Below are positions 20,245 to 54,414 of a stretch of 64,000 nucleotides of DNA, one piece after another; position 1 is the first letter of the stretch; each line of letters starts with the position of its first letter. The translations under genes were made by a program, and so were the position numbers. Below the pieces are notes generated by a model. It did no database searches and was not told the DNA's origin. It saw only the letters and a list, made by a program, of their open reading frames with translations. This stretch comes from Candidatus Gottesmanbacteria bacterium RIFCSPLOWO2_01_FULL_43_11b (GTDB taxonomy: Bacteria > Patescibacteriota > Microgenomatia > UBA10105 > UBA927): NCBI GenBank assembly GCA_001780985.1, contig MFJV01000001.1, positions 835,497 through 899,496 of the forward strand. The letters run 5' to 3'.

Positions 20245-21189
20245 ATGAAAACTATTTTGGTTACCGGCGGGGGAGGATTTATCGGATCACACCTTTGTGA
20301 AAAACTCCTGGAGCAAGAATATAAAGTTATTTGTCTCGATAATTTTAGAACAAGCAAAAAACGAAATATTGACGAGTTAATTAATAACCCCAACTTTAGG
20401 CTTATTGAAGCAGACACGAGAGATGTTGGAGTTTCCAATCTTCCATTTTCAGAAAAACTTGACGAAATTTACGATCTGGCTAGCCCGGCATCAGTAACCT
20501 ACATTATGGAACACCCTGTGGAGGTAGCGACGGTTAACGCTATTGGTACCAAGAATATGCTTGATATCGCAAAATCTATGGGAGCAAAGTTTCTTTTTGC
20601 ATCAACATCGGAAGCGTACGGCGATCCTAAAGAACATCCGCAGAAAGAATCGTATTGGGGGAACGTTAATCCTATAGGCGCACGATCCGGTTATGACGAG
20701 GGGAAGCGTTTCGGTGAGACACTAACAATGGCATATCACAGAGAACATGGGCTTGACGGTAAAATTGTACGCATATTCAATACCTATGGGCCAAAGTCAG
20801 ATCCTGATGATACCCGAGTGATTCCTCAGTTTGTTACAAACGCACTACGCAGTAAGCCTCTCCCCATACACGGTGACGGTATGCAAACACGATCGTTTTG
20901 TTACGTCAGCGATATGGTAGACGGTATTATTAAAATGATGAACAGCGACCAAATCGGACCAATAAATCTCGGGAACCCCGACGAGTATAAAATTATCGAC
21001 GTAGCTAAAAAAATAATCTCTCTTACAAGCTCGACTTCAAAAATAGAATTCGTCAATCGCCCTCCCGATGACCCTTCAGTGCGAAAACCAGATATAAGCC
21101 TCGCGAAACAGTTATTAAATTGGGAGCCAAAAATTAAACTTGAAGAAGGATTAGCCTTAACTATTGAATACTTCCGCTCCTTACTTTAA
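20245..21189 (+). CDS. UDP-glucuronate decarboxylase (UDP-xylose synthase family SDR)
   Basis: TGGGGFIGSH Rossmann motif. STSEAYGDPKEHPQKESYWGNVNPIGARSGYDEGKRFGE is the UXS/ArnA-decarboxylase signature. Confidence 0.85.
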   Translation: MKTILVTGGGGFIGSHLCEKLLEQEYKVICLDNFRTSKKRNIDELINNPNFRLIEADTRDVGVSNLPFSEKLDEIYDLASPASVTYIMEHPVEVATVNAIGTKNMLDIAKSMGAKFLFASTSEAYGDPKEHPQKESYWGNVNPIGARSGYDEGKRFGETLTMAYHREHGLDGKIVRIFNTYGPKSDPDDTRVIPQFVTNALRSKPLPIHGDGMQTRSFCYVSDMVDGIIKMMNSDQIGPINLGNPDEYKIIDVAKKIISLTSSTSKIEFVNRPPDDPSVRKPDISLAKQLLNWEPKIKLEEGLALTIEYFRSLL

Positions 21190-22412
21190 TGCGTAAGACA
21201 TTATCATTTCTCACTATCATGGTAGGTGGTCATGGGTTTGCTAATATCGGTGCGTACTTTTACCACCTTTTCATGGGTCGACTTCTGATTCCTTCTGATT
21301 ACGGTGCTCTTCAGAGCCTCATATCTCTTTCTAATATACTGAGCGTTCCGACAGTCACACTTAATACTGTCGTTGCCAAGTTTGTCTCTACCTATGTTGG
21401 CAAGGGCGAAAAAGAGATGATCTCATCTCTCTATTACCAACTTCGCAAATTTCTCTTTATTTTTCTGATTATCGGCGGGGCCCTGTTTCTTCTTTTTTCA
21501 AACCCCATCATGAAATTTTTACATCTTGAAAACTGGGTGAATGTACTTATTTTGGATCTTGCTCTTTTTCTGGGACTTATTAATTTTCTCAATCGTGCAA
21601 CTCTTCAAGGACTATCGCTTTTTGTACCGCTCACGATTACACAATTTATCGAAGCATTCGGCAAACTGATTTTTGGTGTTGTTGCGGTGTTGGCGGGCCT
21701 TCGGGTCCCCGGAGCTTTTGGCGCTTTTGTACTTGTGGTTTTTATATCATACGGCTATATGGTTACTGTGCTTCATAAAAAACTAGGAAAACCCTCTTAT
21801 AGACCATTACCCATACGGGCAATGGGACGCTATGCGATTCCGAGTGCACTCATGACGATTGGTGTAACAGCACTCTATAACACGGATGTTATTCTTGTCC
21901 GGCATTTTTTATCCGCGTATGAAGCGGGATTGTACGCTGCATTATCGGTGCTCGGAAAAATTATTTTTTTCGGAACTGCACCGGTTGTTACGACTATGTT
22001 CCCGCTTGTTTCAGAAGCACATGCACGAGGGGAGCGGTACCATAGAATATTTCTTTTGAGTCTTATGTTTCTTGTAGCAATTGCGGGTAGTGTTACGCTT
22101 CTTTTTACAATACTTCCAACATTTATGATGAAACTTCTTATAGGCAGTCAATATCTTGACGCAGCGGTCTACCTTGCCCCTTTTAGTCTATTTCTTTCTC
22201 TTTGTGCGGTTATTTATCTTTTTGTTAATTTTTTTCTGTCAATTCATCGTACTCGTGCTGTCTACGTTGTCGTTGCGGGTGCCATTGTTCAGGCTGTAGC
22301 ACTATCACTGTTTCACCCGGATATTTCAACGGTGATAACAATATCTCTTTCAGTAACGACTCTGTTAACGGTGATTTTGTCGTTTTACTATATCTCCGTT
22401 GCACGATCCTAA
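21189..22412 (+). CDS. polysaccharide/oligosaccharide flippase (Wzx-like, MOP superfamily)
   Basis: 407 aa with about 12 TM helices. Polysacc_synt-like N-terminal pattern (GGHGFANIGAYFYHLFMGRLL..DYGALQSL). Confidence 0.6.
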   Translation: MRKTLSFLTIMVGGHGFANIGAYFYHLFMGRLLIPSDYGALQSLISLSNILSVPTVTLNTVVAKFVSTYVGKGEKEMISSLYYQLRKFLFIFLIIGGALFLLFSNPIMKFLHLENWVNVLILDLALFLGLINFLNRATLQGLSLFVPLTITQFIEAFGKLIFGVVAVLAGLRVPGAFGAFVLVVFISYGYMVTVLHKKLGKPSYRPLPIRAMGRYAIPSALMTIGVTALYNTDVILVRHFLSAYEAGLYAALSVLGKIIFFGTAPVVTTMFPLVSEAHARGERYHRIFLLSLMFLVAIAGSVTLLFTILPTFMMKLLIGSQYLDAAVYLAPFSLFLSLCAVIYLFVNFFLSIHRTRAVYVVVAGAIVQAVALSLFHPDISTVITISLSVTTLLTVILSFYYISVARS

Positions 22413-28100: not shown

Positions 28101-30137
28101 ATGAAGAGACTAATTTTCCCGCTCGTCCTATTTTTGACTTATCTTATCCTCGGGATTGTTACAATAACTAATTATGGTATCAATTGGGATGAGCCAGCTC
28201 ATTTTATACGCGGGCAGGTGTTTTTACGCTTTCTTCTTACAGGGAAGAAAGATTATGCAGGTCTTCCCGAAATAGACGCAAAGAGTTACAGGCAGGACTT
28301 TGGATACGAATTTCGTGACCCGAATACTAATTCCACAGTTCGCCGGAGCATCTATCAACACGATGACTATGGCCTTGTGTACTATACCCAGAATGTAGAA
28401 AAACGGGGGAGCCACCCCGCATTCTCAGACGTCATGTCAGCACTTTTTAATTACGTATTATTTGTTAAATTGGGTATCGCACCGGATGTATACTCCTATA
28501 ATTACTATTCAATTTTTGTTGCATCTTTATTGGTAACAGGGATATATATATGGACAAAAAAATACTTTGGTGGATTCGCAGCTATTGTCTCCACTCTCTC
28601 GCTAGCGCTTTTCCCTTTCTTTTGGGCAGAATCACACTACAACATAAAAGACGTGCCGGAGACGGTTTTCTACGCACTGTCCGTGCTTGTTTTTTATGAA
28701 GCAATTACATCCGCCAAAATAAAATACATTTGGTATTTTGCTTTTGTTTTTGCGATGGCATTTGCAACAAAGTTTAATGCTCTCTTTATTCTTCCGACCG
28801 TGCTTTTGTGGTTATTTCTACGGAACTTTTTCCTCTATCGAACGTCATGGAGAGAAATGTTTTCTTTCGTGAAAAAGAACAAAGCCTTTTTGGTTTTTTT
28901 GGTTGTTCCGATTATTGCGGTTGCGCTGTGGGTTCTTTCATTTCCGGCGATGTTGTTCGAGCCAAGACTCATTCCTGCATCATTTTCATATTACAAAACG
29001 ATTGGTACCACCCCGGTGGGAAATGATTGGCGCTATCCGCTCTATTATCTCTTTTATACCACTCCGCCATCTTTACTCATTTTTTCAATTATTGCACTGG
29101 CAGGAGAATTCACAAAAATCGATAGAAAAATAAAGGACATACTTCTCCTTATCATGGTTTGGATTTTTATACCGATTGTTCGAGTGATGATTCCCGGAAC
29201 CGCAATTTACGGCGGAGTGCGCCAAATTATGGAATACATCCCGGCGATTGCTATCTTATCCGGAATAGGAGCAAACAGATTAACCAAAATTCCCAGAATG
29301 TTTATCATTCTCACATTTATTCCTCTCATAGTTACCTTAGTGAAACTTCATCCCAATGAAGCGGTATACTTCAATAGCTTGATTGGCGGACTCGAAGGAG
29401 CAAAAGAACGTAATATTCCCGATTGGGGACAGACATTGGGGAATCCCTATAGGCAGGGAATACTCTGGATCAACCGGCACGCAGAAGAAAATGCACAATT
29501 GTCATTAGGATTTGAACTGTGGGCAAACCTTCCTCATATTTGGGTCCGCAACGACATAACGTACGATAACATTGTTAAAAGCGGACCAGCGCGTTTAGGG
29601 GAATATGTTATGGCAGTCATGAATCCAAGCGATGCGCTTAGTTGGTATCGGATGCAATATTTAGAAACATTTATTGACCCTGTTTATCAAGTGTCAGTAG
29701 ACGGAGTCGTACTTCTTACTGTGTGGAAAAACGATACAGCTCACCTGAAAGAGATGTATCGTACAATGGAAGAGGAAAAAATAGCAGATGTTCCCATCAC
29801 CGGCCACTTTCCCTCGTTTGTTCTTACGCTACCCAAAAAACACAAAATTCTCCGCATTGAATTCAAAAATAAAAACCCGTCCCTATGTCCGGAACCCGCA
29901 CGTCACGAACTTGATGATGTTGTAGGTATTTTCCGTTTCTACAGTGACACTTCAATGTCACGCTTCTTAAAAACGCTTCGAGCCTCATCGTATGATTTTA
30001 ACGGAAAAGTCAGCTACCCGCGACCGAACTTCCTCTTTGCAGCAGAGGAGGGGAGAGCGATCGTCTTTGACGTGGCAATCGACCACCCGTGCTATTCTAC
30101 AATCAGTGGGGCAAACGTCTATGTCGTAAAGGAGTAA
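28101..30137 (+). CDS. GT-C (ArnT-like) glycosyltransferase with C-terminal discoidin/F5-8-type-C-like domain, 678 aa; tandem paralog 1 of 3
   Basis: YGINWDEPAHFIRG motif. About 12 TM helices. IYGGVRQIMEYIPAIAILSGIGA block is shared by all three paralogs. C-terminal ~200 aa beta domain. Confidence 0.8.
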   Translation: MKRLIFPLVLFLTYLILGIVTITNYGINWDEPAHFIRGQVFLRFLLTGKKDYAGLPEIDAKSYRQDFGYEFRDPNTNSTVRRSIYQHDDYGLVYYTQNVEKRGSHPAFSDVMSALFNYVLFVKLGIAPDVYSYNYYSIFVASLLVTGIYIWTKKYFGGFAAIVSTLSLALFPFFWAESHYNIKDVPETVFYALSVLVFYEAITSAKIKYIWYFAFVFAMAFATKFNALFILPTVLLWLFLRNFFLYRTSWREMFSFVKKNKAFLVFLVVPIIAVALWVLSFPAMLFEPRLIPASFSYYKTIGTTPVGNDWRYPLYYLFYTTPPSLLIFSIIALAGEFTKIDRKIKDILLLIMVWIFIPIVRVMIPGTAIYGGVRQIMEYIPAIAILSGIGANRLTKIPRMFIILTFIPLIVTLVKLHPNEAVYFNSLIGGLEGAKERNIPDWGQTLGNPYRQGILWINRHAEENAQLSLGFELWANLPHIWVRNDITYDNIVKSGPARLGEYVMAVMNPSDALSWYRMQYLETFIDPVYQVSVDGVVLLTVWKNDTAHLKEMYRTMEEEKIADVPITGHFPSFVLTLPKKHKILRIEFKNKNPSLCPEPARHELDDVVGIFRFYSDTSMSRFLKTLRASSYDFNGKVSYPRPNFLFAAEEGRAIVFDVAIDHPCYSTISGANVYVVKE

Positions 30138-30140: not shown

Positions 30141-30689
30141 TTATTCCTCTTGGGGTTTCGGCGTAGAAAATTCAAGTTCGAGATTTTTTAATTCTGTCTC
30201 ATTCCTCTGAGAGAATTCCAATATTTTCTGTAGATCAGTCTGTGTATCCGCTGAAGTTTTGCCAATCACACCGATAAGCAATTGTTGATGGTATGGGTAT
30301 GCGTCATGGGCGCGTTTTATAATTATTGTATCGAGCGAACCGGATTCGTCCGCCATTCTCTTGATCTCGTTAACAAATTGTGTCATGTAGTGTTCTCCCC
30401 GAAATGCAGAATGGAGACCAACGGCATTATCGCCCAGTTGAATAACTTTAGCAGCGCCCGTCAGTTCTCTGTCAGCAAGCTCTATATACTTAAGCGCTCT
30501 TTTGGCGGAGTCTTTCGTAAATAGTAAGGAAAGTTTATCCCAGACAAGCTGGAGTTTATAAAACGAGTTATTGGGTAACAGTTTGACTTCAGGCGCTTGA
30601 TAGGTTTGAGGAGTTTGCGCAAAAGCGGCGGGCAAGCCGGAAAAATAGACAATACCGGCAAAGAGAATGAAAAGCATCTTGAATTTCAC
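30141..30689 (-). CDS. small secreted DUF5667-like protein, paralog of 8071..8516
   Basis: Signal peptide MKFKMLFILFAGIVYFSGLPAAFA. LPNNSFYKLQLVWDKLSL..AKRALKYIELADRELTGA block parallels the other copy. Confidence 0.65.
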   Translation of the reverse strand: MKFKMLFILFAGIVYFSGLPAAFAQTPQTYQAPEVKLLPNNSFYKLQLVWDKLSLLFTKDSAKRALKYIELADRELTGAAKVIQLGDNAVGLHSAFRGEHYMTQFVNEIKRMADESGSLDTIIIKRAHDAYPYHQQLLIGVIGKTSADTQTDLQKILEFSQRNETELKNLELEFSTPKPQEE

Positions 30690-39994: not shown

Positions 39995-41200
39995 ATGAGA
40001 CTGAATGCACTCATTTCTCTTATACATTCTAAAAAGGCAGCAATAGGCGTTATTGGCCTTGGTTACGTCGGTCTTCCGCTTGCTACGTTAATTGCCCGAA
40101 AAGGATTTCGCGTAACGGGTTTTGTACGCGATCCAAGTAAAATTAATCAAAAAAAAATACGAGTTGCTCACATAGATTCAGACGAACTTAATGAACAGGA
40201 TATATATATTATTTGTGTTCCAACCCCGGTATTCGAAAATAAAAAGCCGGATTTAGGTGCAATCAGAAGCGTTGCACAGCGGCTTTCCCTGGTGCTTCTG
40301 GATGGAAAGCTCATCATCAATGAGTCGACGGTTGCGCCGGGAACGACAAGAGAGGAGTTTGGATCGTTAGGAGGAAAATATTTTTTGGCATGTTCACCTG
40401 AGAGAGTAGATCCCGGAAATAAAGATAAAACTGTGCGAACCATATCTAAAGTTGTCGGCGGAGTTAATCCTGAGAGTTTAGCACTTGCCAAAGTACTCTA
40501 CGAAAAAGTTCTTGATGCACCTGTTGTAAGCGTTTCGTCTCTCGAGGCAGCTGAAATGGTCAAAATGCTTGAGAACACATACCGTGCGGTCAACATAGCC
40601 CTGGTCAATGAGTTTGCCAGACTTAGTGAAAAAACAGGACTTGATGTTGTTGAAATAATCGAAGCAGCAAAAACGAAATGGTCATACCATGCCCATTACC
40701 CGAGTGTCGGAGTCGGTGGTCACTGCATCCCTGTTGATCCCTGGTATCTTGTTGACTTTAGCAAAAAGAAAAACGTGAACCTCACCCTCATTGAACAGAG
40801 TTTAAAGGAGAACGATGCAATGGCACAGGTTGTCGCAGATAAAGTAATCTCTCAGTATAAAAAAGGAGCGACAGTTCTTCTGTATGGACTCACGTATAAA
40901 AAAGACGTCAAAGATATCCGTGAAAGTCCTGTTATTCGTCTGGCTAGGATTTTACAGAAAAACAATATTCGATTTGTGGCTTATGATCCGTTATTAAACG
41001 AACAGGAAATAAAAGCATTTGGTTTTACGCCGGGAAAACTTAAAACTTCGGATATTTTTATTGTCGGTACAGATCATAAACAACTTTCAGGGGATTTTAA
41101 AAGATGCGTAGACAATAATACAATAATTATTGACGGCAGGAATTTTTTCCGAATAAAGGTTGGCAAATCCGTTCTCGGGGTTGGTCGGTCGCTTGTATGA
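39995..41200 (+). CDS. nucleotide-sugar dehydrogenase (UDP-glucose/UDP-ManNAc 6-dehydrogenase family)
   Basis: N-terminal IGVIGLGYVGLPLA Rossmann motif. Catalytic GGHCIPVDPWYL. C-terminal UDP-binding domain. Confidence 0.85.
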   Translation: MRLNALISLIHSKKAAIGVIGLGYVGLPLATLIARKGFRVTGFVRDPSKINQKKIRVAHIDSDELNEQDIYIICVPTPVFENKKPDLGAIRSVAQRLSLVLLDGKLIINESTVAPGTTREEFGSLGGKYFLACSPERVDPGNKDKTVRTISKVVGGVNPESLALAKVLYEKVLDAPVVSVSSLEAAEMVKMLENTYRAVNIALVNEFARLSEKTGLDVVEIIEAAKTKWSYHAHYPSVGVGGHCIPVDPWYLVDFSKKKNVNLTLIEQSLKENDAMAQVVADKVISQYKKGATVLLYGLTYKKDVKDIRESPVIRLARILQKNNIRFVAYDPLLNEQEIKAFGFTPGKLKTSDIFIVGTDHKQLSGDFKRCVDNNTIIIDGRNFFRIKVGKSVLGVGRSLV

Positions 41201-42648
41201 AACCTCTCGTTTCCGTCATTATTCCCTCTTTTAATTCCGCATTGACCATCGGCGTTACCCTTATGAGTTTAAAAAATCAGACATATAAAAACACTGAGAT
41301 TATCGTTGTCGATAAGGGATCAACCGACCTAACGCAAAAAATCTCGGGGAAATTTACAAAAAATGTTTTCACTCACGGACCGGAACGGGCAGCACAAGTG
41401 AATTTTGGGGTAAGGAAGGCTAAAGGGAAATACCTTTACCGAGTAGACTCTGATTTTATCGTTGAACCGGAGGTTATCGAGCAGTGTGTAAAAAAATGTG
41501 AAGAGGAGCGTCTTGACGGAATAGCCGTGCATAATACATCCGCGGAGGGATTAGGTTTTTGGTCAGAAGTAAGGAAAGTCGAACGGAACACATATCGGGA
41601 CGATCCGCTTATTGTCGCGGTGAGATTCTTTACAAAAAATTCATGGAAAACTATCAGCGGATTTGATGAAACCCTGTTCGGACCCGAGGATTACGATTTT
41701 CATAATCGATTTGTCAGCTCCGGATTCCGGTGGGGGAGAGTAAAAGCAATCGAACGTCACCTTGGTGAGCCAAAAAGCATTAAAGATATTTGGAAAAAGC
41801 ATTTTTTTTACGGAAAGCAAATGGTTGGGTATTACCGCAAACATCCCCGTACGGCTTTATTTCAATTTAATCCTGTGAGAGTAAGTTTTGTCCGAAACCT
41901 TGGAGTCTTGCTTTCTTCTCCCACGATTTTTGTCGGGCTTATCATTATGCAGATAGTTAAGTTTACTGCCGGCGGTTTGGGTTTTCTTACAGCTGTCGTT
42001 GTACGTGATGAAAGTCGACTAAGGATTATGTCAACTAAGAGGAAAGTTATCCGATTATACCGCGGCTTAGGTTGGGTAACTTTTTTTACCCGGGTAAGAT
42101 TTTGGACCGGATCCTTCGAGGAGATGGACCGATATATTTCACCCTCAGGTACGATTCTCGATTTGGGTTGTGGCTATGGTATTTTTGCAAACTATCTCGC
42201 ACTTTCTTCTCCCCGACGAAAAGTAATCGGAGTTGATTTGGACAAAGATAAGTTGCGGTATGCCGATAGGGGTATAAAGAACGCAAAATTTCTCTATGGT
42301 GACGCTACGCGTATGCGTGTGCCAAATTTAAAAGGTATAACAATACTCGATGTTCTTCACCACTTAGATTCTTATAGCATGCAGGAAAGTCTGATTAAAG
42401 CATGTACTTCCATGCTTGTTAAGAACGGAAAACTCATTGTGAGCGAAGTTGACAGTAAACCCTTTTGGAAACTTATACTTGCAAGACTCGCGGATTCCCT
42501 GTTGTATCCGGGGCAACCAGTGTATTATGGACATCGCAACCGACTTTTCCCGCTTTTGCAAAAATATTTTGGCGCGGGTAATGTAAGGACATATACGCTC
42601 CATTACAACCCCTTTCCTCATAGGCTTTACATATGTCAAAAAAAATAA
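41197..42648 (+). CDS. bifunctional GT2 glycosyltransferase - TM segment - class I SAM methyltransferase fusion, 483 aa
   Basis: N-terminal VSVIIPSFNS..IIVVDKGSTD..DSD..EDYDF (GT2). Hydrophobic stretch in the middle (FVGLIIMQIVKFTAGGLGFLTAVV). C-terminal ILDLGCGYGIFANYL..ILDVLHHL (methyltransferase). Confidence 0.75.
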   Translation: MKPLVSVIIPSFNSALTIGVTLMSLKNQTYKNTEIIVVDKGSTDLTQKISGKFTKNVFTHGPERAAQVNFGVRKAKGKYLYRVDSDFIVEPEVIEQCVKKCEEERLDGIAVHNTSAEGLGFWSEVRKVERNTYRDDPLIVAVRFFTKNSWKTISGFDETLFGPEDYDFHNRFVSSGFRWGRVKAIERHLGEPKSIKDIWKKHFFYGKQMVGYYRKHPRTALFQFNPVRVSFVRNLGVLLSSPTIFVGLIIMQIVKFTAGGLGFLTAVVVRDESRLRIMSTKRKVIRLYRGLGWVTFFTRVRFWTGSFEEMDRYISPSGTILDLGCGYGIFANYLALSSPRRKVIGVDLDKDKLRYADRGIKNAKFLYGDATRMRVPNLKGITILDVLHHLDSYSMQESLIKACTSMLVKNGKLIVSEVDSKPFWKLILARLADSLLYPGQPVYYGHRNRLFPLLQKYFGAGNVRTYTLHYNPFPHRLYICQKK

Positions 42649-43337
42649 AACAGAAACTTCCCAGTTTTACAATAGCAATACCAGCATACAATGAGGAAGA
42701 AAGTTTACCCTGGGTGCTCAACGATACGCTTCGTCACGCACCTGTTTATTTTTCGGATTTTGAGATAGTCGTTGTGGACGACGGAAGTTCTGATAATACA
42801 TCAAAAATCGTACGTCAGTATACATCAAAAGATAAACGGATCCGTTTAATTCACCAACCCAACAGCGGATACGGCAACGCTATGCTTCGGGGAATTCGTG
42901 CCGCCCGAAAAGATTTTGTTGCGTATATGCCCGCTGATGGGCAGTTTCTTGTCCGGGATATGCGTCATTGTTTCCCTCATATGAGGAACGCAGACCTGAT
43001 TTTGGGATATCGCGGGCCCAGAGTAGACTATTCTGTCTATAGACATATTTTGTCACAAAGCTATCTTTTTCTCCTGCGTTTATTGTACGGACTCAGATAC
43101 AGAGACGTGAACTGGCTGACAATTTGGAGAACACGGGACGTGCAAAAAATGTCCGTTACTTCCCGGGGGATATTTTTGCTTGCAGAAATTGTGATTCGTT
43201 TTAAGAGGAAAGGGCTTAGAATTGTAGAAGCGCCGTCATTTTATAGACCACGGCGGGGAGGGCGCGTGAAAAATACGAAATTTAGAATTGTCCTTCGTAC
43301 GCTTTTGGATGCGCTCCTGTTTCGCCTCGCTCATTGA
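42633..43337 (+). CDS. GT2 family glycosyltransferase (DPM1-like)
   Basis: FTIAIPAYNEEESL..IVVVDDGSSDNT..YMPADGQ. Confidence 0.85.
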   Translation: MSKKIKQKLPSFTIAIPAYNEEESLPWVLNDTLRHAPVYFSDFEIVVVDDGSSDNTSKIVRQYTSKDKRIRLIHQPNSGYGNAMLRGIRAARKDFVAYMPADGQFLVRDMRHCFPHMRNADLILGYRGPRVDYSVYRHILSQSYLFLLRLLYGLRYRDVNWLTIWRTRDVQKMSVTSRGIFLLAEIVIRFKRKGLRIVEAPSFYRPRRGGRVKNTKFRIVLRTLLDALLFRLAH

Positions 43338-43370: not shown

Positions 43371-43754
43371 ATGAAATATATAAAAACAGTGAAACCATTT
43401 TATATTGACGAGCGCGGGGAAATGTCTCATTTGCTGCCGGGCACTGTTAAAATAGCGAGTGCAATTGTTATTAAGTGTAAAAGAGGTACTATTCGTGCTA
43501 ATCATTACCATAAGCACGATACGCACTTTTCTTATATGCTTAAAGGCTCCATGGAATATGTGCACAAGGATTTAAAGAAAAAAAACTCAAGAAAGCAATC
43601 GTTTACCGTACGGGAAGGCCAAATTGTTATGACGCCACCCATGTTTGGTCATGCGATGAAATTTCTTGAGGATAGTGTGTTTTTAGCCCTTACGACTGAG
43701 CCGCGAAGCAGGAGCGAGTACGAAACGGACACTGTCCGAATGGAGCTTCTATGA
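43371..43754 (+). CDS. WxcM/FdtA-like cupin (NDP-4-keto-6-deoxyhexose 3,4-ketoisomerase family)
   Basis: 127 aa. RGTIRANHYHKHDTHFSYMLKGSMEY matches the RGxHxHK motif of FdtA/WxcM cupins. Confidence 0.7.
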   Translation: MKYIKTVKPFYIDERGEMSHLLPGTVKIASAIVIKCKRGTIRANHYHKHDTHFSYMLKGSMEYVHKDLKKKNSRKQSFTVREGQIVMTPPMFGHAMKFLEDSVFLALTTEPRSRSEYETDTVRMELL

Positions 43755-44995
43755 AAGGAGCAGTGCATAAAAGAACGACATGTCGAGCATGCAAAAACAC
43801 AAAGTTAACAAAGGTATTGTCTTTAGGACCGACGCCTCTTGCAAATGCTTTTCTCACAAAAGAAATGCTCGACAAAGAGGAAATGTTTTATCCACTTGAT
43901 GTCTATTTCTGTCAGAATTGCCATTTTCTTCAACTCGGTCATGTGGTTAGGCCGGAAATTCTTTTTAAAAATTATGTCTATGTTTCAAGCACGTCGCCCG
44001 TATTCGTTGAACACTTTCATGACTTCGCGCATGATCTTATACAACGGTTTGACTTGGATCAAAAATCGTTGGTTGTTGATATCGGCAGTAATGACGGAAT
44101 ACTTCTTAAACCCCTTAAAGAACATAACCTTCGTACACTGGGTATCGAGCCTGCGCAAAATATTGCGGCAAGAGCGAATAAAGACGGTATCAAAACCATT
44201 GCAAAATTTTTTACTACCGCTCTTGCACGGTCTATAGGTAAAGCATACGGTCAAGCATCGGTTGTGACTGCCAATAACGTATTTGCACATATTGACAATC
44301 TGGACGAAGTTATTGAAGGAACAAAAATTCTTCTTAAAAAAAACGGCGTTTTTGTCGTTGAGGCGCCGTATTTGGTAGATTTTCTTACCAAAAACTATTT
44401 TGATCTTGTCTATCACGAACACCTTTCGTATCTTTCGGTGAAACCGCTCCAAACACTCTTTCACCGATTTGACATGGAGATTTTTGATGTACAAAAAGTT
44501 CCGGTCCACGGAGGATCCATTCGCGTTTTTGTAAAGGGAAAAGGTGCGGCTTACAAACAAACAGCGCGTCTCAGTCATTTCCTAAAACTTGAAAAAAGGA
44601 TGCGCCTTGATAGAGTAGAGACATATTTTACCTATGCGGACAAGGTGCGAATTAACAAAACAAAACTCATTGCTCTCCTGACCAAACTTAAACATCAGGG
44701 GAAATCTATTGCCGGCTACGGTGCTCCCGCCAAAGGAAATACACTGCTCAATTACTTCGGAATCGGTACGGATTATATCAATTACATTATCGACGACAGC
44801 CCGTATAAACAAGGATTATATTCACCCGGGAAGCATATTCCCGTGGTAGCTTCCGCTATGTTAGCCAAGCAAAAACCTGATTACCTTCTTCTTCTTGCCT
44901 GGAATTTTGCCAAACCCATAATGGAAAAACTCCAAGACTATCAGCATCAGGGGGGAAAGTTCATAGTCCCTGTTCCAAGACCCAAAACTGTCTAA
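43751..44995 (+). CDS. NDP-hexose C-methyltransferase (TylC3/NovU-like; Zn-ribbon + SAM MTase + C-terminal domain)
   Basis: N-terminal CRACKN...CQNCHF zinc ribbon. VVDIGSNDGILL motif I. 414 aa three-domain layout typical of sugar 3-C/5-C methyltransferases. Confidence 0.75.
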   Translation: MKGAVHKRTTCRACKNTKLTKVLSLGPTPLANAFLTKEMLDKEEMFYPLDVYFCQNCHFLQLGHVVRPEILFKNYVYVSSTSPVFVEHFHDFAHDLIQRFDLDQKSLVVDIGSNDGILLKPLKEHNLRTLGIEPAQNIAARANKDGIKTIAKFFTTALARSIGKAYGQASVVTANNVFAHIDNLDEVIEGTKILLKKNGVFVVEAPYLVDFLTKNYFDLVYHEHLSYLSVKPLQTLFHRFDMEIFDVQKVPVHGGSIRVFVKGKGAAYKQTARLSHFLKLEKRMRLDRVETYFTYADKVRINKTKLIALLTKLKHQGKSIAGYGAPAKGNTLLNYFGIGTDYINYIIDDSPYKQGLYSPGKHIPVVASAMLAKQKPDYLLLLAWNFAKPIMEKLQDYQHQGGKFIVPVPRPKTV

Positions 44996-45002
44996 TAATT
45001 TT

Positions 45003-46064
45003 ATGCACCCGATTATTCGTCAGGATATACGTCAAATTATCAAAGATATAAAAAAAGAAGCAAGACTGATGGAAGGAAAAACACTTCTTATATCAGGTGG
45101 TGCCGGTTTTTTGGGAAGTTACATTGTCGCGACTATTTCTCTTTTAAACACAAGTCTTTTTAAATCTCCATGTAGGGTTATTGTTGTCGACAATTACATT
45201 ACCGGTAAAAGAAAACGGGATTTAGAATCTCTAGACGACAAAAATATAGAATTCATAACTCATGATATAACCAAACCAATAATTATTGATAAAACAATTG
45301 ACTATATTATTCATGCGGCGGGTTTGGCGTCGCCGGTATATTATAGGAAATTTCCCCTAGAAACCATCGAGGCAGCAATTTTTGGCGCAAAGAATCTTTT
45401 GGAATTGGCAAGGAAAAAGAAAGTTAAAAGCTTTCTCTTTTTTAGTTCAAGCGAAATTTACGGGGATCCTGATCCCAATTTTATTCCAACACCGGAAACA
45501 TACCGCGGTAACGTCTCTCCAATTGGTTCCCGCGCTTGTTATGATGAATCCAAAAGACTGGGAGAAACCATTTCTATAACGTATTTCGACAAATACAAAG
45601 TACCGGTTAAAATTGTACGACCATTTAATGTGTATGGACCCGGAATGAGGCCCGATGATTATCGGGTAATTCCTACCTTTTTAATGAGGGCGCTCGAAAG
45701 AAAACCTTTACCGGTCCATGATGAGGGTAATCAGACGCGAACATTCTGTTACATAAGCGACGCGACGACGGCATTTTTAAAGGTACTTCTTTCTCACAAA
45801 TCGGGAGAAGTGTATAACGTCGGCAGTGATGATGACGAAATAAATATGATGAGTCTCGCTCAAATTGTTGCGGACGTCTCACCGAAAAAAGTAGAAATAA
45901 AAAGAATTCCGTATCCGGAAAACTACCCTAAAGATGAGCCGCGCAGACGCCGCCCCGATCTTTCTAAAATTAAAAATATTCTCAACTACCGGACACGCGT
46001 GAGTCTGAGAACCGGACTCGCCCGTACGCTCCGATGGTTTGCAAGCCAGTTAGAAAAGCAATAG
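45003..46064 (+). CDS. UXS/ArnA-type NAD-dependent sugar nucleotide decarboxylase/dehydratase SDR
   Basis: ISGGAGFLGSY. SSSEIYGDPDPNFIPTPETYRGNVSPIGSRACYDESKRLGE is the UXS-like signature. 40-aa N-terminal extension. Confidence 0.75.
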   Translation: MHPIIRQDIRQIIKDIKKEARLMEGKTLLISGGAGFLGSYIVATISLLNTSLFKSPCRVIVVDNYITGKRKRDLESLDDKNIEFITHDITKPIIIDKTIDYIIHAAGLASPVYYRKFPLETIEAAIFGAKNLLELARKKKVKSFLFFSSSEIYGDPDPNFIPTPETYRGNVSPIGSRACYDESKRLGETISITYFDKYKVPVKIVRPFNVYGPGMRPDDYRVIPTFLMRALERKPLPVHDEGNQTRTFCYISDATTAFLKVLLSHKSGEVYNVGSDDDEINMMSLAQIVADVSPKKVEIKRIPYPENYPKDEPRRRRPDLSKIKNILNYRTRVSLRTGLARTLRWFASQLEKQ

Positions 46065-46068
46065 TCAT

Positions 46069-46971
46069 ATGCCGCGCACAATACTTGCACTTATCGGTCA
46101 TGGACAGTGGGGTAAAAATTACCTTACGACTGCTCAAGAAATTCCTGAATGCCATATTAAATACGTTTGTTCAAGAGACTACAAAAAACTCCTCCGATAT
46201 AAAGAGATCGACGGGATTATTATCGCCACACCTCCGTCAACACATTTCGATATTGCAAGCTTCTTTCTCCTTCATGCAATGCCTCTCCTTATTGAAAAAC
46301 CTTTAACCACAGGATATCAAGATGCATTAAGACTTTTGAGAATGCACAAAGAGAGCGCGCCAGTCGTGTTGGTTGGACATATTTTTTTCTACAACCCGGC
46401 CTTTTTAAGGCTGAAAACCTTAGTGCCTCACATCGGGACACTGGTCTCCATAGATAGCGAGGGAACAAATTTTGGTCCAATGCGCAGTGACGTATCTGCG
46501 TTATGGGATTGGGCCCCTCATGAAATTTCTATGGGGATGAGTCTTATGGGAGCATCGCCTTCGGCGGTTCAAGGGTGGTCTCTTCGAACAAAAATATCCG
46601 GACGCGAAACAGACGATATGGTATATATGAAACTTGTCTTTGGAAAAATTTCTATGTTTTCAAAAATCGGTTGGTTGTCACCGATAAAAACACGACGTTT
46701 TACCGTTACAGGGACACATGGCGCTATCATTTTTGATGATATGCACCCCGTCCGTAAATTGAAACAGTTAAGTGGAGCTTTGCGTGCTGTTATTTCTTAT
46801 CCTTCCTACGAAAAAACAGCGCCGCTCGAAAATCAATTGCGTGAATTCATTTCGTGTATCCGCTTGAAGCGAAAACCCCGCACAGACCTTGCACACGGGG
46901 TCGAGTGCGTACGCGTTATCGATGCGGTTGAACGGTCAATACGGCAAAAAGGCAAATATATCTCTCTTTGA
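46069..46971 (+). CDS. Gfo/Idh/MocA-family NAD(P)-dependent sugar oxidoreductase
   Basis: ALIGHGQWGKNY N-terminal Rossmann motif. EKPL motif (LLIEKPLTT). Confidence 0.75.
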   Translation: MPRTILALIGHGQWGKNYLTTAQEIPECHIKYVCSRDYKKLLRYKEIDGIIIATPPSTHFDIASFFLLHAMPLLIEKPLTTGYQDALRLLRMHKESAPVVLVGHIFFYNPAFLRLKTLVPHIGTLVSIDSEGTNFGPMRSDVSALWDWAPHEISMGMSLMGASPSAVQGWSLRTKISGRETDDMVYMKLVFGKISMFSKIGWLSPIKTRRFTVTGTHGAIIFDDMHPVRKLKQLSGALRAVISYPSYEKTAPLENQLREFISCIRLKRKPRTDLAHGVECVRVIDAVERSIRQKGKYISL

Positions 46972-50564: not shown

Positions 50565-52028
50565 TTATTTGATTCGCGTCTCTATTACACAGCTACAGGC
50601 TTTGTCGAAGCGAAGTCTGATAACGTGATCATATTTTGGAACTTGTTCTTTCCAATCATGATAGACAGTACTATCCGTAGTATATGTTACTTCGTTTCTC
50701 CCAATAACCTGAGTAAAGAAAGAACCTTCTTGCCCTGCAAACTCAGGAGACTTCACAACGACCAGAGTGTTTGGAGAGAGTGAATTCCGCTTTTCGACAA
50801 TATAGGAATAAAGTGCTTTTGTGGGTCTGTTCCACACAAACGTACGGCGCATAATATTTTCTAAGAGAGTTACACTCGCGAAATAGTAAATAACAAGGAG
50901 AATAATTCCTAGGTAAAGTCGGAGCCCTTTGTGTTGCAGGAAGAAATACCAAAGAGCAATTGCCCAAAATATACTCAAGAAAAATGTAGGAAAATATAAA
51001 TACCTGTTGGAATCTGCGATGATAATTTCAGGAAGCTTCACATACGCGTTAAGGAAAAAAATGATGGTTACTGCGGTAAGGCAGGTTACAAGGAGAGCCC
51101 GAAATTTTGGAAGCCTGGTAAAAAGTATGAGGAATACGATCGGATAAAGAAGAAATACGTAAGGTAAACTTTTGATTGCCAATTGAGCACTAAACCGTAC
51201 AAAGGCAGCTGACGTTGAGAAATAGCTTACGAGCGGTGCGTAATCAGACCAAAACACAAGCTGGAGCGCCATTGCCCGAACATAGTTATATTTTTGAGGA
51301 TTCAATAAAAACTCAGGGAGGGTCCATTTTGGCCCCCAGCCACCGTAGGATAACTGTTGCGCTGCGACAATTGCTGTGCTCAGCAACAAAAACGATGCTC
51401 CGATAAATATTCCCCTCCGCAGATTGCGATTGTTGGATTTGAATACAAACCACCAGAAAGGATACAAGGCAAATGCAGGAGTGAGCAGGAGTTCCACATG
51501 TCCAAGTCCTATTCCCACAACATACAAAATTAAAGAAAGTCCGTACTGTATATTCTTTCCTGTCGTAAGAAATAAATGGAGGAATAGGAAACTAATAATC
51601 ATAAATGGTACATTAATGACCCGTTCCAAAAAAAAGCAATAGCAGTGTGTACCATATGTATCCCACGTCCCGAAGTAATTAACACTGGCAATGAGCGACG
51701 CGCTAAAAGCCAGAATTCGTGACCGGGTGACTGTTCGCACGAGAAGATAGAACAAGACGTCGATAAGCAAAATGACACCCAGTTCAAACCATAAGTAAAG
51801 ACTTATGGTTGGTCCGAATAGTTTTGCCAGTATCGGGGCGAGAAGAGCTTTCCCGACTTGAATTGCGGTCAGCGCGTATTGCTGACTCCAATACTGTTTT
51901 TGTATGTTTTCGAACATAAAGAGGAATGCGTCGGTTCGGAGAATAGTCTGCGGGAGAAGCCGCCATGCATACAGGGTCAATACAATAAGAAGGATAACTA
52001 ATATAACATCCGGAAAAAATTTTTTCAT
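50565..52028 (-). CDS. large polytopic membrane protein, unknown (possible GT-C or polymerase-like)
   Basis: 487 aa with at least 12 hydrophobic segments. No soluble domain or catalytic motif recognised. Confidence 0.55.
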   Translation of the reverse strand: MKKFFPDVILVILLIVLTLYAWRLLPQTILRTDAFLFMFENIQKQYWSQQYALTAIQVGKALLAPILAKLFGPTISLYLWFELGVILLIDVLFYLLVRTVTRSRILAFSASLIASVNYFGTWDTYGTHCYCFFLERVINVPFMIISFLFLHLFLTTGKNIQYGLSLILYVVGIGLGHVELLLTPAFALYPFWWFVFKSNNRNLRRGIFIGASFLLLSTAIVAAQQLSYGGWGPKWTLPEFLLNPQKYNYVRAMALQLVFWSDYAPLVSYFSTSAAFVRFSAQLAIKSLPYVFLLYPIVFLILFTRLPKFRALLVTCLTAVTIIFFLNAYVKLPEIIIADSNRYLYFPTFFLSIFWAIALWYFFLQHKGLRLYLGIILLVIYYFASVTLLENIMRRTFVWNRPTKALYSYIVEKRNSLSPNTLVVVKSPEFAGQEGSFFTQVIGRNEVTYTTDSTVYHDWKEQVPKYDHVIRLRFDKACSCVIETRIK

Positions 52029-53192: not shown

Positions 53193-53828
53193 ATGAAACC
53201 AAAGAACGTGATTTTTTGGGGCGGAACAGGGCAAGCGAAAGTTGTGCGCCCCATTATTGAAGCATACGGTGGAAAACTTGTTGCTGTTTTTGATGATAAT
53301 CCAAAGCTTCCGCCGCCATTTCCTGATGTCCCCTTATTTTATGGGAAGAAAGGCTTTGAAAAATGGATGAAATCACACGTACCCCGACGATTGGGGTTCT
53401 GTATCACTATAGGTAACCCACATGGCCGCGTGCGGGTGAAGTTTCATAACTGGCTCGTTGGGATCGGATTAACGCCGGTAACTGTCATACATCCGACTGC
53501 CTTTATTGCCGATAATGCCGTTATTGGTGACGGTTGCCAGTTTATGGCCGGAGCTTCTGTGGGTGTCCAGGCGCAGCTGGGAAAAGAATGCATTATTAAT
53601 ACTAACGCGAGTGTTGACCATGAATGTGTGCTTGGCGATGGCGTGGGAGTAGCACCCGGTGCGACGTTATGCGGAGAAGTAAAAGTCGGAATTAATGGTT
53701 GGATTGGTGCGGGTGCTACCGTTTTACCGCGAATTACGATTGGTGCTGACAGTATTGTTGGCGCCGGTGCAGTCGTTATTCGAGATGTTCCCTCCGATGT
53801 TACCGTCGTTGGTGTTCCGGCAAAATGA
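53193..53828 (+). CDS. PglD/NeuD-family hexapeptide-repeat sugar N-acetyltransferase
   Basis: N-terminal Rossmann-like VIFWGGTGQAKVV. C-terminal left-handed beta-helix repeats (IGDGCQFMAGASVG..VGVAPGATLCGEV..IGAGATVLPRITIG..VGAGAVVIRDV). Confidence 0.8.
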   Translation: MKPKNVIFWGGTGQAKVVRPIIEAYGGKLVAVFDDNPKLPPPFPDVPLFYGKKGFEKWMKSHVPRRLGFCITIGNPHGRVRVKFHNWLVGIGLTPVTVIHPTAFIADNAVIGDGCQFMAGASVGVQAQLGKECIINTNASVDHECVLGDGVGVAPGATLCGEVKVGINGWIGAGATVLPRITIGADSIVGAGAVVIRDVPSDVTVVGVPAK

Positions 53829-54414
53829 GGGTTTTCTTTGCGATAATTGTCGGATATTTGTACAGCCAGTAAAATTTTTTAATAACAAACGAGCGTTCTA
53901 TCGTTAATTGTTTCCGGAAAATTTTCTTAATTTCAGGAAGTTCGCGAAAGTTTTCCCCTTCATCTATTTTTTCCAAAACGGCACTTAATGGACCCAGGTC
54001 AGGCTTACTATCAAAAAGAATTATTCTTTTAAAACGGATATTTTTTGTTAAGTTTGATAAAACCGTTTGTAGTTGTACATCAGTCATATGATGAATAACA
54101 TTCATAAATAAAACAATATCGAATTTTTTATTCAGCGGCTGTAAATTTTGGGCATTCAAAAATAAAAAATTTCTTGCCGGACTGCCAAAGTGTTTCCGTG
54201 CGTATTGTATATAAGATAAATTATTATCGACTCCTACATAGTATTTTGGGCGGATGAATTTCATTATTGTTCCGGGACCACATCCTATTTCCAAGATAGA
54301 ATCATGCGGATACTTCTCAATGAGGCGTTTTGCTACATGCGGGAAATCCATGTCTAATATCTGGATGACATTATATATCCCGGGGATGTTCAAGAGTTGA
54401 GTTTTTAGGTTCAT
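53800..54414 (-). CDS. class I SAM-dependent methyltransferase
   Basis: ILEIGCGPGTIMKFI and FDIVLFMNVIHHM. Confidence 0.75.
   Translation of the reverse strand: MNLKTQLLNIPGIYNVIQILDMDFPHVAKRLIEKYPHDSILEIGCGPGTIMKFIRPKYYVGVDNNLSYIQYARKHFGSPARNFLFLNAQNLQPLNKKFDIVLFMNVIHHMTDVQLQTVLSNLTKNIRFKRIILFDSKPDLGPLSAVLEKIDEGENFRELPEIKKIFRKQLTIERSFVIKKFYWLYKYPTIIAKKTLILPEHQRR

What the first reader, a model, noticed from the sequence alone, without database searches (positions are those of the whole stretch)
41197..42648. Rosetta-stone fusion: GT2 glycosyltransferase, TM segment, SAM methyltransferase
A single 483-aa ORF carries a complete GT2 domain (DxD, EDYDF), a hydrophobic segment and a class I methyltransferase domain. 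Elsewhere in the window GT2 or GT4 genes are repeatedly followed by separate methyltransferase genes (6618 then 7360; 17106 then 18197; 54411 with 53800/55156). The fusion supports functional coupling of sugar transfer and sugar methylation, meaning O-methylated sugars in the product glycan.
Basis: seen in the sequence. Interest (0 to 1): 0.6.

Follow-up and report, generated by a model that had tools for sequence, protein, structure and literature searches.

The report
Glycosyltransferase–methyltransferase gene fusion, real
A single gene in an uncultured groundwater bacterium (Candidatus Gottesmanbacteria) joins a sugar-adding enzyme and a methyl-adding enzyme that are separate neighbouring genes in its relatives; the fusion is genuine and shows that the two work together, but fusions of this kind are already known, so it is a solid, fairly ordinary finding.

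Summary
The 483-aa ORF at 41197-42648 exists as described. It has a GT2 domain (DSD 84-86, EDYDF 164-168), a hydrophobic segment (~234-269) and a class I SAM methyltransferase (277-483), with all motifs intact. It is not an artefact: about 17 diverged orthologs (55-64% identity) from other metagenomes share the architecture. More distant GT2-methyltransferase fusions of 451-523 aa also exist.

In relatives the two halves are separate genes in the same operon. They may overlap co-directionally (285 + 211 aa), be split by an acyltransferase gene, or lie on opposite strands. Fused forms are not monophyletic, so fusion or fission recurred.

A WecC/Cap5O-like nucleotide-sugar dehydrogenase is translationally coupled upstream in both fused and unfused loci. 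This suggests an N-acetyl-hexosaminuronic acid donor.

Functional coupling is well supported. "O-methylated sugar" remains an inference. "TM segment" is doubtful: a single membrane pass would put a SAM-dependent domain outside the cell. The in-window GT/MT adjacency is real but not above chance (P = 0.11).

GT plus methyltransferase fusions are already characterised (WsaE, PBCV-1 A064R, Klebsiella O7 ORF6). Verdict: new member of a known kind, modest interest.

The parts
39995..41200 (+). Nucleotide-sugar 6-dehydrogenase (401 aa), WecC/Cap5O-like. Its TGA stop overlaps the ATG of the fused gene (ATGA).
   Evidence: Pfam UDPG_MGDP_dh N, central and C domains. NCBIfam TIGR03026 scores 332 bits, above its cut-off of 190. 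The best equivalog-type scores are UDP-ManNAc dehydrogenases (227 and 173 bits) and TviB (168), ahead of UDP-Glc dehydrogenases (<=122); all are below equivalog cut-offs. PDB: 4r16 at 182 bits and Cap5O at 155 bits, against <=95 bits for UDP-Glc dehydrogenases. The gene lies directly upstream with a 4-bp overlap in fused loci L003 and L005 and unfused loci L007-L010 and L012-L014. The overlap was read.
41197..42648 (+). Fused GT2 / hydrophobic element / class I methyltransferase ORF (483 aa, stop included).
   Evidence: AlphaFold2 model has mean pLDDT 95.3 and pTM 0.77. GenBank EKD87575.1 / OGG24493.1, UniRef A0A1F6AJ95, Candidatus Gottesmanbacteria.
41197..41886 (+). GT-A fold GT2 catalytic domain (residues 1-230). 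Includes D39, the DxD motif D84-S-D86 (41446-41454) and E164-D165-Y-D167-F168.
   Evidence: PF00535 E 1.6e-24. These residues are invariant in 73 homologs and in all 17 fused proteins. Foldseek probability 1.0 to WrtF, TarP, RmlT, K4CP and TarS. The best PDB sequence match is the K4CP second GT2 domain, E 6.6e-18.
41896..42003 (+). Conserved hydrophobic membrane-association element (residues 234-269). Invariant residues: P242, G247, M251, K255, F256, G259, G260, G262, F263. Stand-alone GTs end just after it.
   Evidence: Hydropathy. Eisenberg <H> 0.6-0.7 with low hydrophobic moment, and net +6 charge on both flanks. Predicted as part of one helix spanning 242-287. Insertion-scale score +2.6. 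Alignment of C-termini.
42004..42024 (+). Short fusion linker (residues 270-276, RDESRLR). Unrelated in sequence and length to the linkers of other fused subgroups.
   Evidence: Junction alignments.
42025..42645 (+). Class I SAM-dependent methyltransferase domain (residues 277-483). Begins at retained in-frame Met277, which aligns with the start of stand-alone orthologs. Motif I is D322-L-G-C-G-Y-G328 (42160-42180); also D349, D369, H388-H389, D433.
   Evidence: Pfam. Stand-alone orthologs of 204-223 aa reach 64% identity. Residues are invariant. AlphaFold2 model of the domain alone has pLDDT 96.1 and pTM 0.92. Foldseek matches class I methyltransferases.
42633..43337 (+). Downstream GT2 (234 aa, DPM1/PpgS-like, no hydrophobic tail). 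Overlaps the 3' end of the fused gene by 16 bp. Conserved partner gene.
   Evidence: Pfam and NCBIfam. A 234-236-aa GT2 directly follows the MT gene in L011, L012, L013 and L014.

Best explanation
This is a genuine, naturally occurring fusion of two neighbouring genes of a conserved cell-surface-glycan operon in a Candidatus Gottesmanbacteria (Microgenomates, CPR) genome. One parent is an inverting-type GT-A/GT2 glycosyltransferase of about 275 aa that ends in a conserved hydrophobic membrane-association element. The other is a class I SAM methyltransferase of about 205 aa. Shown: both domains are complete and conserved. The separate versions lie in the same operon in relatives. The two genes have been joined or separated several times. 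Inferred: the protein sits on the cytoplasmic face of the membrane and takes a nucleotide sugar made by the translationally coupled WecC/Cap5O-type dehydrogenase, most likely a UDP-N-acetyl-hexosaminuronic acid. It adds that sugar to a membrane-bound glycan intermediate, and the attached methyltransferase then methylates the new sugar or its neighbour, on a hydroxyl or possibly the carboxyl group. Fusion guarantees 1:1 stoichiometry and proximity of the two steps. Because SAM is only available in the cytoplasm, the hydrophobic element is more likely a monotopic or re-entrant anchor, or a lipid-substrate-binding element, than a membrane-spanning helix.
For: Architecture and motifs. Real fusion: about 17 diverged full-length orthologs, and at least 9 more distant GT2-then-MT proteins of 451-523 aa confirmed by Pfam. 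Orthology of the halves to separate neighbouring genes: the MT domain matches adjacent stand-alone MTs at E 1e-39 to 1e-49, against E >= 2e-7 for all other MTs in those loci. L014 carries dehydrogenase, GT285, MT211 and GT2-234 with a 23-bp GT/MT overlap. L012 and L013 carry GT279 plus MT204/206; 279 + 204 = 483. The junction maps to the end of the stand-alone GT and the start of the stand-alone MT. Recurrent fusion or fission: monophyly of fused forms was found in 0 of 200 bootstraps. The window pairs with unfused L011 at 82%, and fused P0014 nests inside an unfused clade at 69-82%. Linkers differ between subgroups. Dehydrogenase coupling: ATGA overlap, conserved in 10 loci. Glycan-acceptor type rather than polyprenyl-phosphate type: the nearest sequence and fold relatives are K4CP, PmHS2, WrtF, TarP, RmlT and TarS. 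ArnC/DPM1-type models are absent from the listed top 25 NCBIfam hits, although they match the neighbouring GT2s strongly. Cytoplasmic orientation of both ends: net +6 charge on both flanks, a marginal insertion score, and invariant MT motifs in all fused copies.
Against: No biochemical data exist for any member. Neither the donor sugar nor the methyl acceptor can be read from sequence or fold. The dehydrogenase scores below every equivalog cut-off, so its exact substrate is unknown. AlphaFold2 predicts the hydrophobic element as one continuous, uniformly hydrophobic helix, which on its own looks like a single-pass TM. One unfused locus (L010) lacks the orthologous MT and instead has a GT-C gene right after the GT, so coupling is frequent but not obligatory. 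The trees are neighbour-joining trees on 29 taxa with weak backbones.
Confidence: 0.6

Rival explanations
1. Artefactual fusion. Two overlapping co-directional genes, as in L014, were merged by a one-base sequencing or assembly error near the junction.
For: In the orthologous split loci the GT and MT genes overlap by 11-23 bp in different frames, so a single indel would fuse them. The contigs carrying the identical protein are 100% identical to the window and come from the same population, so they are not fully independent.
Against: About 17 diverged clusters from unrelated samples and assemblers are fused in the same way. In the window, the conserved GT tail motif KFTAGGLGF and the MT N-terminus share one frame, with no homopolymer run at the junction. 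There are two separate GenBank depositions. The full-length model is confident through the junction, with pLDDT at least 78.
Confidence: 0.03
2. The GT half is a polyprenyl-phosphate sugar synthase, working like DPM1, GtrB or ArnC. The methyltransferase modifies the lipid-linked monosaccharide on the cytoplasmic face. The product is then flipped and used by one of the many GT-C (PMT_2) enzymes of the island.
For: The window encodes at least 7 GT-C-like proteins and no recognisable Wzm/Wzt. In L010 a PMT_2 gene directly follows the GT. In L008 and L009 a Pfam-less multi-TM protein lies between the GT and the MT. The membrane element has an invariant Lys255 that could meet a lipid phosphate. Modification of a polyprenyl-phosphate-linked sugar has a precedent in ArnD (own knowledge).
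Against: The GT domain shows no specific match to ArnC, DPM1, PpgS or GtrB models or structures, whereas the neighbouring 301-aa and 234-aa GT2s do (ArnC E 7e-56; PpgS E 4e-11). Its best relatives extend glycans or teichoic acids. It has one ~35-residue hydrophobic element rather than the two C-terminal TM helices of GtrB and ArnC.
Confidence: 0.2
3. The methyltransferase is a chain-terminating cap enzyme, as in WsaE, WbdD or Klebsiella O7 ORF6. It methylates only the non-reducing end of a finished polymer to stop elongation and mark it for export.
For: This is the established role of methyltransferase domains fused to GT2 modules in WsaE (PMC2943079) and Klebsiella O7 ORF6 (PMC11231755).
Against: Pfam finds no Wzm/Wzt ABC transporter, coiled-coil ruler or kinase module in the 64-kb window or in the protein. 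The protein carries a single GT module, not a polymerase pair. Several ORFs remain unannotated, so absence is not proven.
Confidence: 0.12
4. The hydrophobic segment is a true single-pass TM helix, so the methyltransferase domain is extracytoplasmic. It would then be inactive, or would use an unknown external methyl donor.
For: AlphaFold2 predicts one continuous helix 242-287. Eisenberg analysis places residues 234-262 in the TM-like region, with high <H> and low moment. Stand-alone GTs look tail-anchored.
Against: No extracytoplasmic SAM pool is known (established knowledge). All SAM-binding and catalytic residues are invariant in 17 fused proteins that diverge to 46% identity in this domain, which argues for an active domain. 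Both flanks are strongly positive. The insertion score is marginal.
Confidence: 0.05

Closest known systems
WsaE of Geobacillus stearothermophilus NRS 2004/3a (S-layer glycan; methyltransferase plus two rhamnosyltransferase domains)
   Same: One polypeptide combines a SAM methyltransferase with GT modules, and the methyl group goes on the sugar the enzyme helps to add (2-O-methyl-rhamnose) (PMC2943079).
   Different: WsaE is soluble, has its methyltransferase at the N-terminus and has two GT domains. It works in an ABC-transporter pathway as a chain terminator. The window protein has one GT, a C-terminal methyltransferase and a membrane element, and no ABC transporter was found nearby. Sequence relatedness was not tested.
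Chlorovirus PBCV-1 A064R (GT - GT - methyltransferase)
   Same: Same domain order, GT first and class I SAM methyltransferase last. In vitro, the methyltransferase methylates O-2 of the rhamnose added by the preceding GT domain (PMC9614988).
   Different: A064R is a viral, soluble, three-domain protein. Its GT domains are of other families (GT-A resembling family 34, and a new family). It has no membrane element and no dehydrogenase partner.
Klebsiella pneumoniae O7 ORF6 (methyltransferase - kinase - coiled coil - GT2 - GT2)
   Same: GT2 modules and a class I methyltransferase in one polypeptide for glycan assembly at the inner face of the membrane (PMC11231755).
   Different: ORF6 has more than 1400 aa and carries kinase, carbohydrate-binding and coiled-coil modules. 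It installs a terminal methyl-phosphate and depends on an ABC transporter.
Haloferax volcanii AglM / AglG, AglI, AglE / AglP
   Same: A nucleotide-sugar dehydrogenase, GT2 enzymes that add hexuronic acids to a lipid-linked glycan, and a SAM methyltransferase that modifies one of those uronic acids (PMC3871713). This is the same logic as dehydrogenase, GT and MT here.
   Different: The Haloferax proteins are separate and archaeal, use a dolichol carrier and make a methyl ester. The window dehydrogenase is of the WecC/Cap5O type rather than the AglM type. No sequence link between the MT domain and AglP was tested.
E. coli K4 chondroitin polymerase K4CP, C-terminal A2 (glucuronosyltransferase) domain
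   Same: Best solved-structure sequence relative of the GT domain: 45 bits for the second domain against 20 bits for the first. Site A2 adds GlcUA (PMC2889854).
   Different: Only about 22-24% identity. K4CP is a two-domain polymerase without a methyltransferase or membrane element. Other equally close fold neighbours use fucose, GlcNAc or rhamnose donors.

Membership tests
Glycosyltransferase family 2 (GT-A fold, Pfam PF00535) | Match to PF00535 above the gathering score | tested here: met
   87.2 bits against a cut-off of 23.3, residues 6-122.
Glycosyltransferase family 2 (GT-A fold, Pfam PF00535) | GT-A fold | tested here: met
   AlphaFold2 model pLDDT 95.3. Foldseek probability 1.0 to the GT2 structures WrtF, TarP, RmlT, K4CP and TarS.
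Glycosyltransferase family 2 (GT-A fold, Pfam PF00535) | DxD metal/nucleotide-sugar motif and a downstream acidic catalytic motif | tested here: met
   D84-S-D86 and E164-D165-Y-D167 are invariant in 73 homologs. Catalytic activity itself cannot be tested here.
Class I SAM-dependent methyltransferases | Pfam class I methyltransferase models above the gathering score | tested here: met
   Methyltransf_25 44.5 bits (cut-off 27), Methyltransf_11 39.1 (21.2), Methyltransf_31 35.3 (27), Methyltransf_23 33.9 (27).
Class I SAM-dependent methyltransferases | Glycine-rich motif I (D/ExGxGxG) and an acidic residue after strand 2 | tested here: met
   D322-L-G-C-G-Y-G328 and D349 are invariant or at least 95% conserved.
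Class I SAM-dependent methyltransferases | Seven-stranded Rossmann-like fold | tested here: met
   Domain model pLDDT 96.1. Foldseek probability 1.0 and TM 0.6-0.7 to many class I methyltransferases.
   Only generic hits were found: UbiG, BioC, CmoA, RedM and phosphoethanolamine N-methyltransferases. PF00891 O-methyltransferase scores 20.7 bits, below its cut-off of 22.3. The product cannot be tested here.
Characterised bifunctional GT/MT glycan enzymes (WsaE, A064R, Klebsiella O7 ORF6) | GT and SAM methyltransferase domains in one polypeptide | tested here: met
Characterised bifunctional GT/MT glycan enzymes (WsaE, A064R, Klebsiella O7 ORF6) | Association with a Wzm/Wzt ABC exporter and a chain-terminating role (WsaE, ORF6) | tested here: inconclusive
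   Pfam found no ABC transporter in the 64-kb window at E <= 1e-8. About 12 ORFs have no Pfam hit, and the rest of the genome was not seen.
Characterised bifunctional GT/MT glycan enzymes (WsaE, A064R, Klebsiella O7 ORF6) | Sequence homology to those proteins | not tested
None of them appeared among the PDB sequence or fold hits.
Polyprenyl-phosphate glycosyltransferases (DPM1 / GtrB / ArnC / PpgS type GT2) | Specific match to family models | tested here: not met
   The listed top 25 NCBIfam hits of the fused protein include no ArnC, PpgS or dolichyl-phosphate hexose transferase model. The neighbouring GT2s match ArnC at E 7e-56 and PpgS at E 4e-11.
Polyprenyl-phosphate glycosyltransferases (DPM1 / GtrB / ArnC / PpgS type GT2) | Two C-terminal transmembrane helices (GtrB/ArnC type) | tested here: not met
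   There is one hydrophobic element of about 35 residues.
TIGR04283 arsenosugar-biosynthesis glycosyltransferase (best NCBIfam hit) | Score above the curated cut-off | tested here: not met
   66.3 bits against a cut-off of 182.
UDP-N-acetyl-D-mannosamine dehydrogenase (WecC/Cap5O), for the upstream partner | Score above equivalog cut-offs | tested here: not met
   227 bits against 750 (archaeal model) and 173 against 459 (WecC). Only the subfamily model TIGR03026 is passed, at 332 against 190. It is closest to this group by PDB, but membership is not established.

The most novel reading that the evidence does not exclude
The invariant hydrophobic element (P242...K255-F256..G259-G260.G262-F263) may not be a transmembrane helix. 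It could be a new monotopic, lipid-substrate-binding module. The repeated fusions to a SAM-dependent domain would then act as a natural topology reporter for it. In this reading the dehydrogenase, GT and MT trio makes a methylated N-acetyl-hexosaminuronic acid on a lipid-linked intermediate. The many GT-C enzymes of this island then deliver that residue to the cell surface of CPR bacteria, whose envelope glycans are essentially unknown.
Probability: 0.15. Interest if true: 0.5.

Novelty: new member of a known kind. Interest (0 to 1): 0.3.

Why it matters
The fusion gives a reliable functional link for a widespread, uncharacterised pair of genes in Microgenomates (Levybacteria, Gottesmanbacteria and relatives). 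Public records name the fused protein only "glycosyl transferase" and the stand-alone methyltransferases only generically. It predicts that the stand-alone GT and methyltransferase act on the same intermediate, with a uronic-acid-type donor from the coupled dehydrogenase. It also gives a testable constraint on the topology of the conserved hydrophobic tail. This is useful for annotating CPR surface-glycan islands. It does not open a new class of mechanism, because GT/methyltransferase fusions are already documented experimentally.

Tried and rejected
1. Donor and acceptor from structure. Foldseek of the full model against the PDB returned GT2 enzymes with fucose, GlcNAc, rhamnose and GlcUA donors at similar scores. 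Foldseek of the methyltransferase domain alone returned only generic class I enzymes. Neither supports a specific assignment.

2. K4CP as evidence for a glucuronic acid donor. It is the best PDB sequence hit, to the GlcUA-adding A2 domain (PMC2889854), but only at about 23% identity. I keep it as a weak hint. I could not verify from the literature held which PmHS2 domain is the glucuronosyltransferase.

3. The genome-contig scan with the single protein found only distant GT2 matches, because its peptide patterns were too specific. Taxonomy therefore rests on source names.

4. The afdb50 fold library was not available.

5. In-window GT/MT adjacency as evidence of coupling was rejected as non-significant (P = 0.11).

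6. Paralogs of either half in the window: none closer than 35% identity over about 100 aa. The 204-aa methyltransferase at 53800-54414 is not a paralog of the fused domain (27% identity, E 8.5e-8).

7. The hexapeptide acyltransferase that separates the GT and MT genes in L011 is not the ortholog of the window's hexapeptide gene at 53193 (29% identity). No simple relocation story emerges.

8. A first bootstrap run with Biopython's distance calculator timed out. It was redone with a numpy implementation.

9. Internal translation start at Met277: the AAGGA sits only 2 nt upstream of the ATG, which is poor spacing. I did not pursue it.
Full report
OBSERVATION. The ORF at 41197-42648 (+) is present and encodes 483 aa. 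Pfam finds a GT2 domain: PF00535, residues 6-122, 87.2 bits against a cut-off of 23.3. It also finds a Glyco_transf_7C-like stretch at 142-186. Several class I SAM-methyltransferase models match residues ~311-427, all above their cut-offs. A hydrophobic stretch covers residues ~234-269.

IS THE FUSION REAL? A search of 5.8 billion proteins found about 17 other clusters of 477-484 aa. They match end to end at 55-64% identity and come from unrelated metagenome assemblies. Two of them were inspected in their contigs (L003, a 1.07-Mb contig of GCA_040960095.1; L005, 90 kb), and both sit in the same gene neighbourhood. The exact window protein is deposited twice: EKD87575.1 and OGG24493.1 (UniRef A0A1F6AJ95, Candidatus Gottesmanbacteria). 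It is named only "glycosyl transferase". The contigs that carry it are 100% identical to the window, so they add little independent support. The diverged orthologs are the decisive evidence against an assembly artefact. The exhaustive 50%-identity representative library adds at least nine more distant GT2-then-methyltransferase proteins of 451-523 aa, confirmed by Pfam.

WHAT WAS FUSED. More than 100 stand-alone proteins of about 275 aa match only the N-terminal 55% of the query, at 62-80% identity. About 100 stand-alone methyltransferases of about 205 aa match only the C-terminal 200 residues, at up to 64% identity. Several are named Levybacteria or Gottesmanbacteria by their sources.

Their gene contexts show the same two genes in one operon in several arrangements:
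- Co-directional and overlapping by 23 bp in different frames, with identical flanks to the window: L014 has epimerase, dehydrogenase, GT285, MT211 and GT2-234.
- Co-directional and overlapping by 11-17 bp: L012 and L013 have GT279 plus MT204/206, though their GT is a divergent relative at 36% identity.
- Separated by a hexapeptide acyltransferase gene (L011).
- The methyltransferase on the opposite strand, directly downstream or behind a Pfam-less multi-TM gene (L007-L009).

The neighbouring methyltransferases are true orthologs of the fused domain (E 1e-39 to 1e-49). Every other methyltransferase in those loci scores E >= 2e-7. One locus (L010) lacks the orthologous methyltransferase and has a GT-C gene after the GT.

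The junction is clean. Stand-alone GTs stop 4-10 residues after the conserved motif KFTAGGLGF. Stand-alone methyltransferases start where the window protein retains an in-frame Met277. 279 + 204 = 483.

HISTORY. In bootstrapped neighbour-joining trees of the GT domain, the methyltransferase domain and both together, monophyly of the fused proteins was never recovered (0 of 200). These trees used 17 fused proteins and 12 unfused pairs. The window protein pairs with the unfused L011 locus (82%, concatenated). Fused P0014 nests within an unfused clade (69-82%). Linker sequences and lengths differ between fused subgroups. Because the split genes overlap, a single indel can fuse them, and a nonsense or frameshift mutation with re-initiation can split them again. 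At least three transitions are implied. The direction is not resolved, and the tree backbones are weak.

BOTH DOMAINS LOOK ACTIVE. D39, D84, D86, E164, D165 and D167 in the GT are invariant in all 17 fused proteins and at least 95% conserved in the wider alignments. So are D322, G324, G326, G328, D349, D369, H388, H389 and D433 in the methyltransferase. AlphaFold2 models are very confident: full length pLDDT 95.3 and pTM 0.77; methyltransferase alone pLDDT 96.1.

CONTEXT AND LIKELY SUBSTRATE. A nucleotide-sugar dehydrogenase gene ends in the ATGA that starts the fused gene. The same dehydrogenase-then-GT junction with a 4-bp overlap is seen in all ten related loci examined, fused or not. The dehydrogenase passes only the general subfamily model TIGR03026. 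It is clearly closer to UDP-N-acetyl-mannosamine/hexosamine dehydrogenases than to UDP-glucose dehydrogenases. NCBIfam gives 227 and 173 bits for the former against 122 or less for the latter. The PDB gives 182 bits (4r16) and 155 bits (Cap5O) against 95 or less. The inferred donor is therefore an N-acetyl-hexosaminuronic acid.

The GT's best solved relative by sequence is the GlcUA-adding A2 domain of chondroitin polymerase K4CP (PMC2889854). This is weak supporting evidence, because fold neighbours use various donors. Those neighbours (WrtF, TarP, RmlT, K4CP, TarS) all extend glycans or teichoic acids. ArnC/DPM1/PpgS-type models do not match this GT, although they match the adjacent 301-aa and 234-aa GT2s. 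A glycan acceptor is therefore favoured over polyprenyl phosphate. The methyl acceptor cannot be read from sequence or fold.

THE "TM SEGMENT". By hydrophobicity and hydrophobic moment the element looks TM-like, and AlphaFold2 draws one helix from 242 to 287. However, a single pass would put a SAM-dependent domain outside the cell, and that domain is under obvious purifying selection in all fused copies. Both flanks carry net +6 charge. On an additive insertion scale (values recalled from Hessa et al. 2005) the best 19-mer scores +2.6. Genuine TM helices of neighbouring membrane proteins score -3 to +1. The element also holds nine invariant residues, including a mid-helix Lys, which is more than a passive anchor needs. 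I infer a monotopic or re-entrant membrane-association or lipid-substrate element with both ends in the cytoplasm. This is an inference, not a result.

All cited GT/MT neighbour pairs are real. The window is one dense glycan island: 14 GT2/GT4 genes, about 10 methyltransferases, at least 7 GT-C-like proteins and 4 DegT aminotransferases. In that setting, 7 adjacencies against 4.4 expected is not significant (P = 0.11). The cross-genome conservation carries the argument.

COMPARISON WITH KNOWN SYSTEMS. Three fusions of GT modules with a SAM methyltransferase have been characterised biochemically. WsaE has MT-GT-GT and makes a 2-O-methyl-rhamnose cap (PMC2943079). PBCV-1 A064R has GT-GT-MT and methylates O-2 of the rhamnose it adds (PMC9614988). 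Klebsiella O7 ORF6 has MT-kinase-coiled coil-GT2-GT2 (PMC11231755). The window protein works like these in principle. It differs in having a single GT, a membrane element, a coupled uronic-acid-type dehydrogenase and no detected ABC exporter. It is a new, uncharacterised member of a known kind.

VERDICT. Novelty is a new member of a known kind. Interest is 0.3.

Noticed in passing
window 1-64000: The whole window is one glycan-biosynthesis island. It holds at least 7 GT-C-like membrane proteins: PMT_2 at 5357, 18964, 23600, 30769, 32751 and 55871, and a YfhO-like protein at 3859. It also holds 14 GT2/GT4 genes, about 10 methyltransferases (including a TylF-type at 62539-63270) and 4 DegT aminotransferases. 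Pfam finds no Wzm/Wzt transporter.
   Followed up: partly
window 987-3862, 8485-13592, 14549-15589, 21189-22412, 28101-30137, 50565-52028: About a dozen large ORFs (346-678 aa) have no Pfam hit at E <= 1e-8. The 487-aa ORF at 50565-52028 looks multi-TM and has a counterpart in L005 (18109-19626). Similar Pfam-less multi-TM proteins sit between the GT and MT genes in L008 and L009. They may be undescribed GT-C or polymerase families.
   Followed up: no
window 43371-46971: A cassette of a 127-aa cupin, a C-methyltransferase (Methyltransf_13/14, 414 aa), an SDR dehydratase-like protein (353 aa) and a GFO/IDH/MocA oxidoreductase (300 aa). At least its cupin / C-methyltransferase / SDR core recurs downstream of the GT-MT genes in L003, L005, L007, L011 and L012. 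It suggests a C-methylated (branched-chain) sugar pathway in these CPR bacteria.
   Followed up: no
L012 5172-6615; L013 5178-6621: Here the methyltransferase ortholog (58% identity) is paired with a GT only 36% identical to the window's GT. That GT still ends in the same tail motif (EFAAGGLGY), which suggests GT displacement with retention of the tail element and the partner methyltransferase.
   Followed up: partly
L011 1609-2244: In the window's closest unfused relative, a hexapeptide-repeat acyltransferase gene lies between the GT and MT genes. It is not orthologous to the window's own hexapeptide gene at 53193-53828 (29% identity).
   Followed up: yes
proteins P0102, P0241, P0243, P0246 (560-592 aa); P0380 (489 aa); P0324 (1125 aa): The same GT family also occurs with two matched stretches in proteins of 560-592 aa, probably tandem GT-GT (not verified). 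The same methyltransferase family occurs as an MT-MT fusion (P0380) and inside a 1125-aa protein (P0324). Both modules are therefore frequent fusion partners.
   Followed up: partly
window 30141-30689 (-); L003 8111-8668; L005 8093-8635; L009 3146-3715; L014 2291-2875: A small DUF5667 gene (180-194 aa) recurs close to the dehydrogenase-GT pair in several loci. The window ORF at 30141-30689 (182 aa) has no Pfam hit at 1e-8 and may be its counterpart; this was not tested.
   Followed up: no
window 42022-42027 (Met277): The fused gene keeps the ancestral methyltransferase start codon in frame, preceded by AAGGA only 2 nt upstream. A separately translated methyltransferase is conceivable but unlikely at that spacing.
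   Followed up: no
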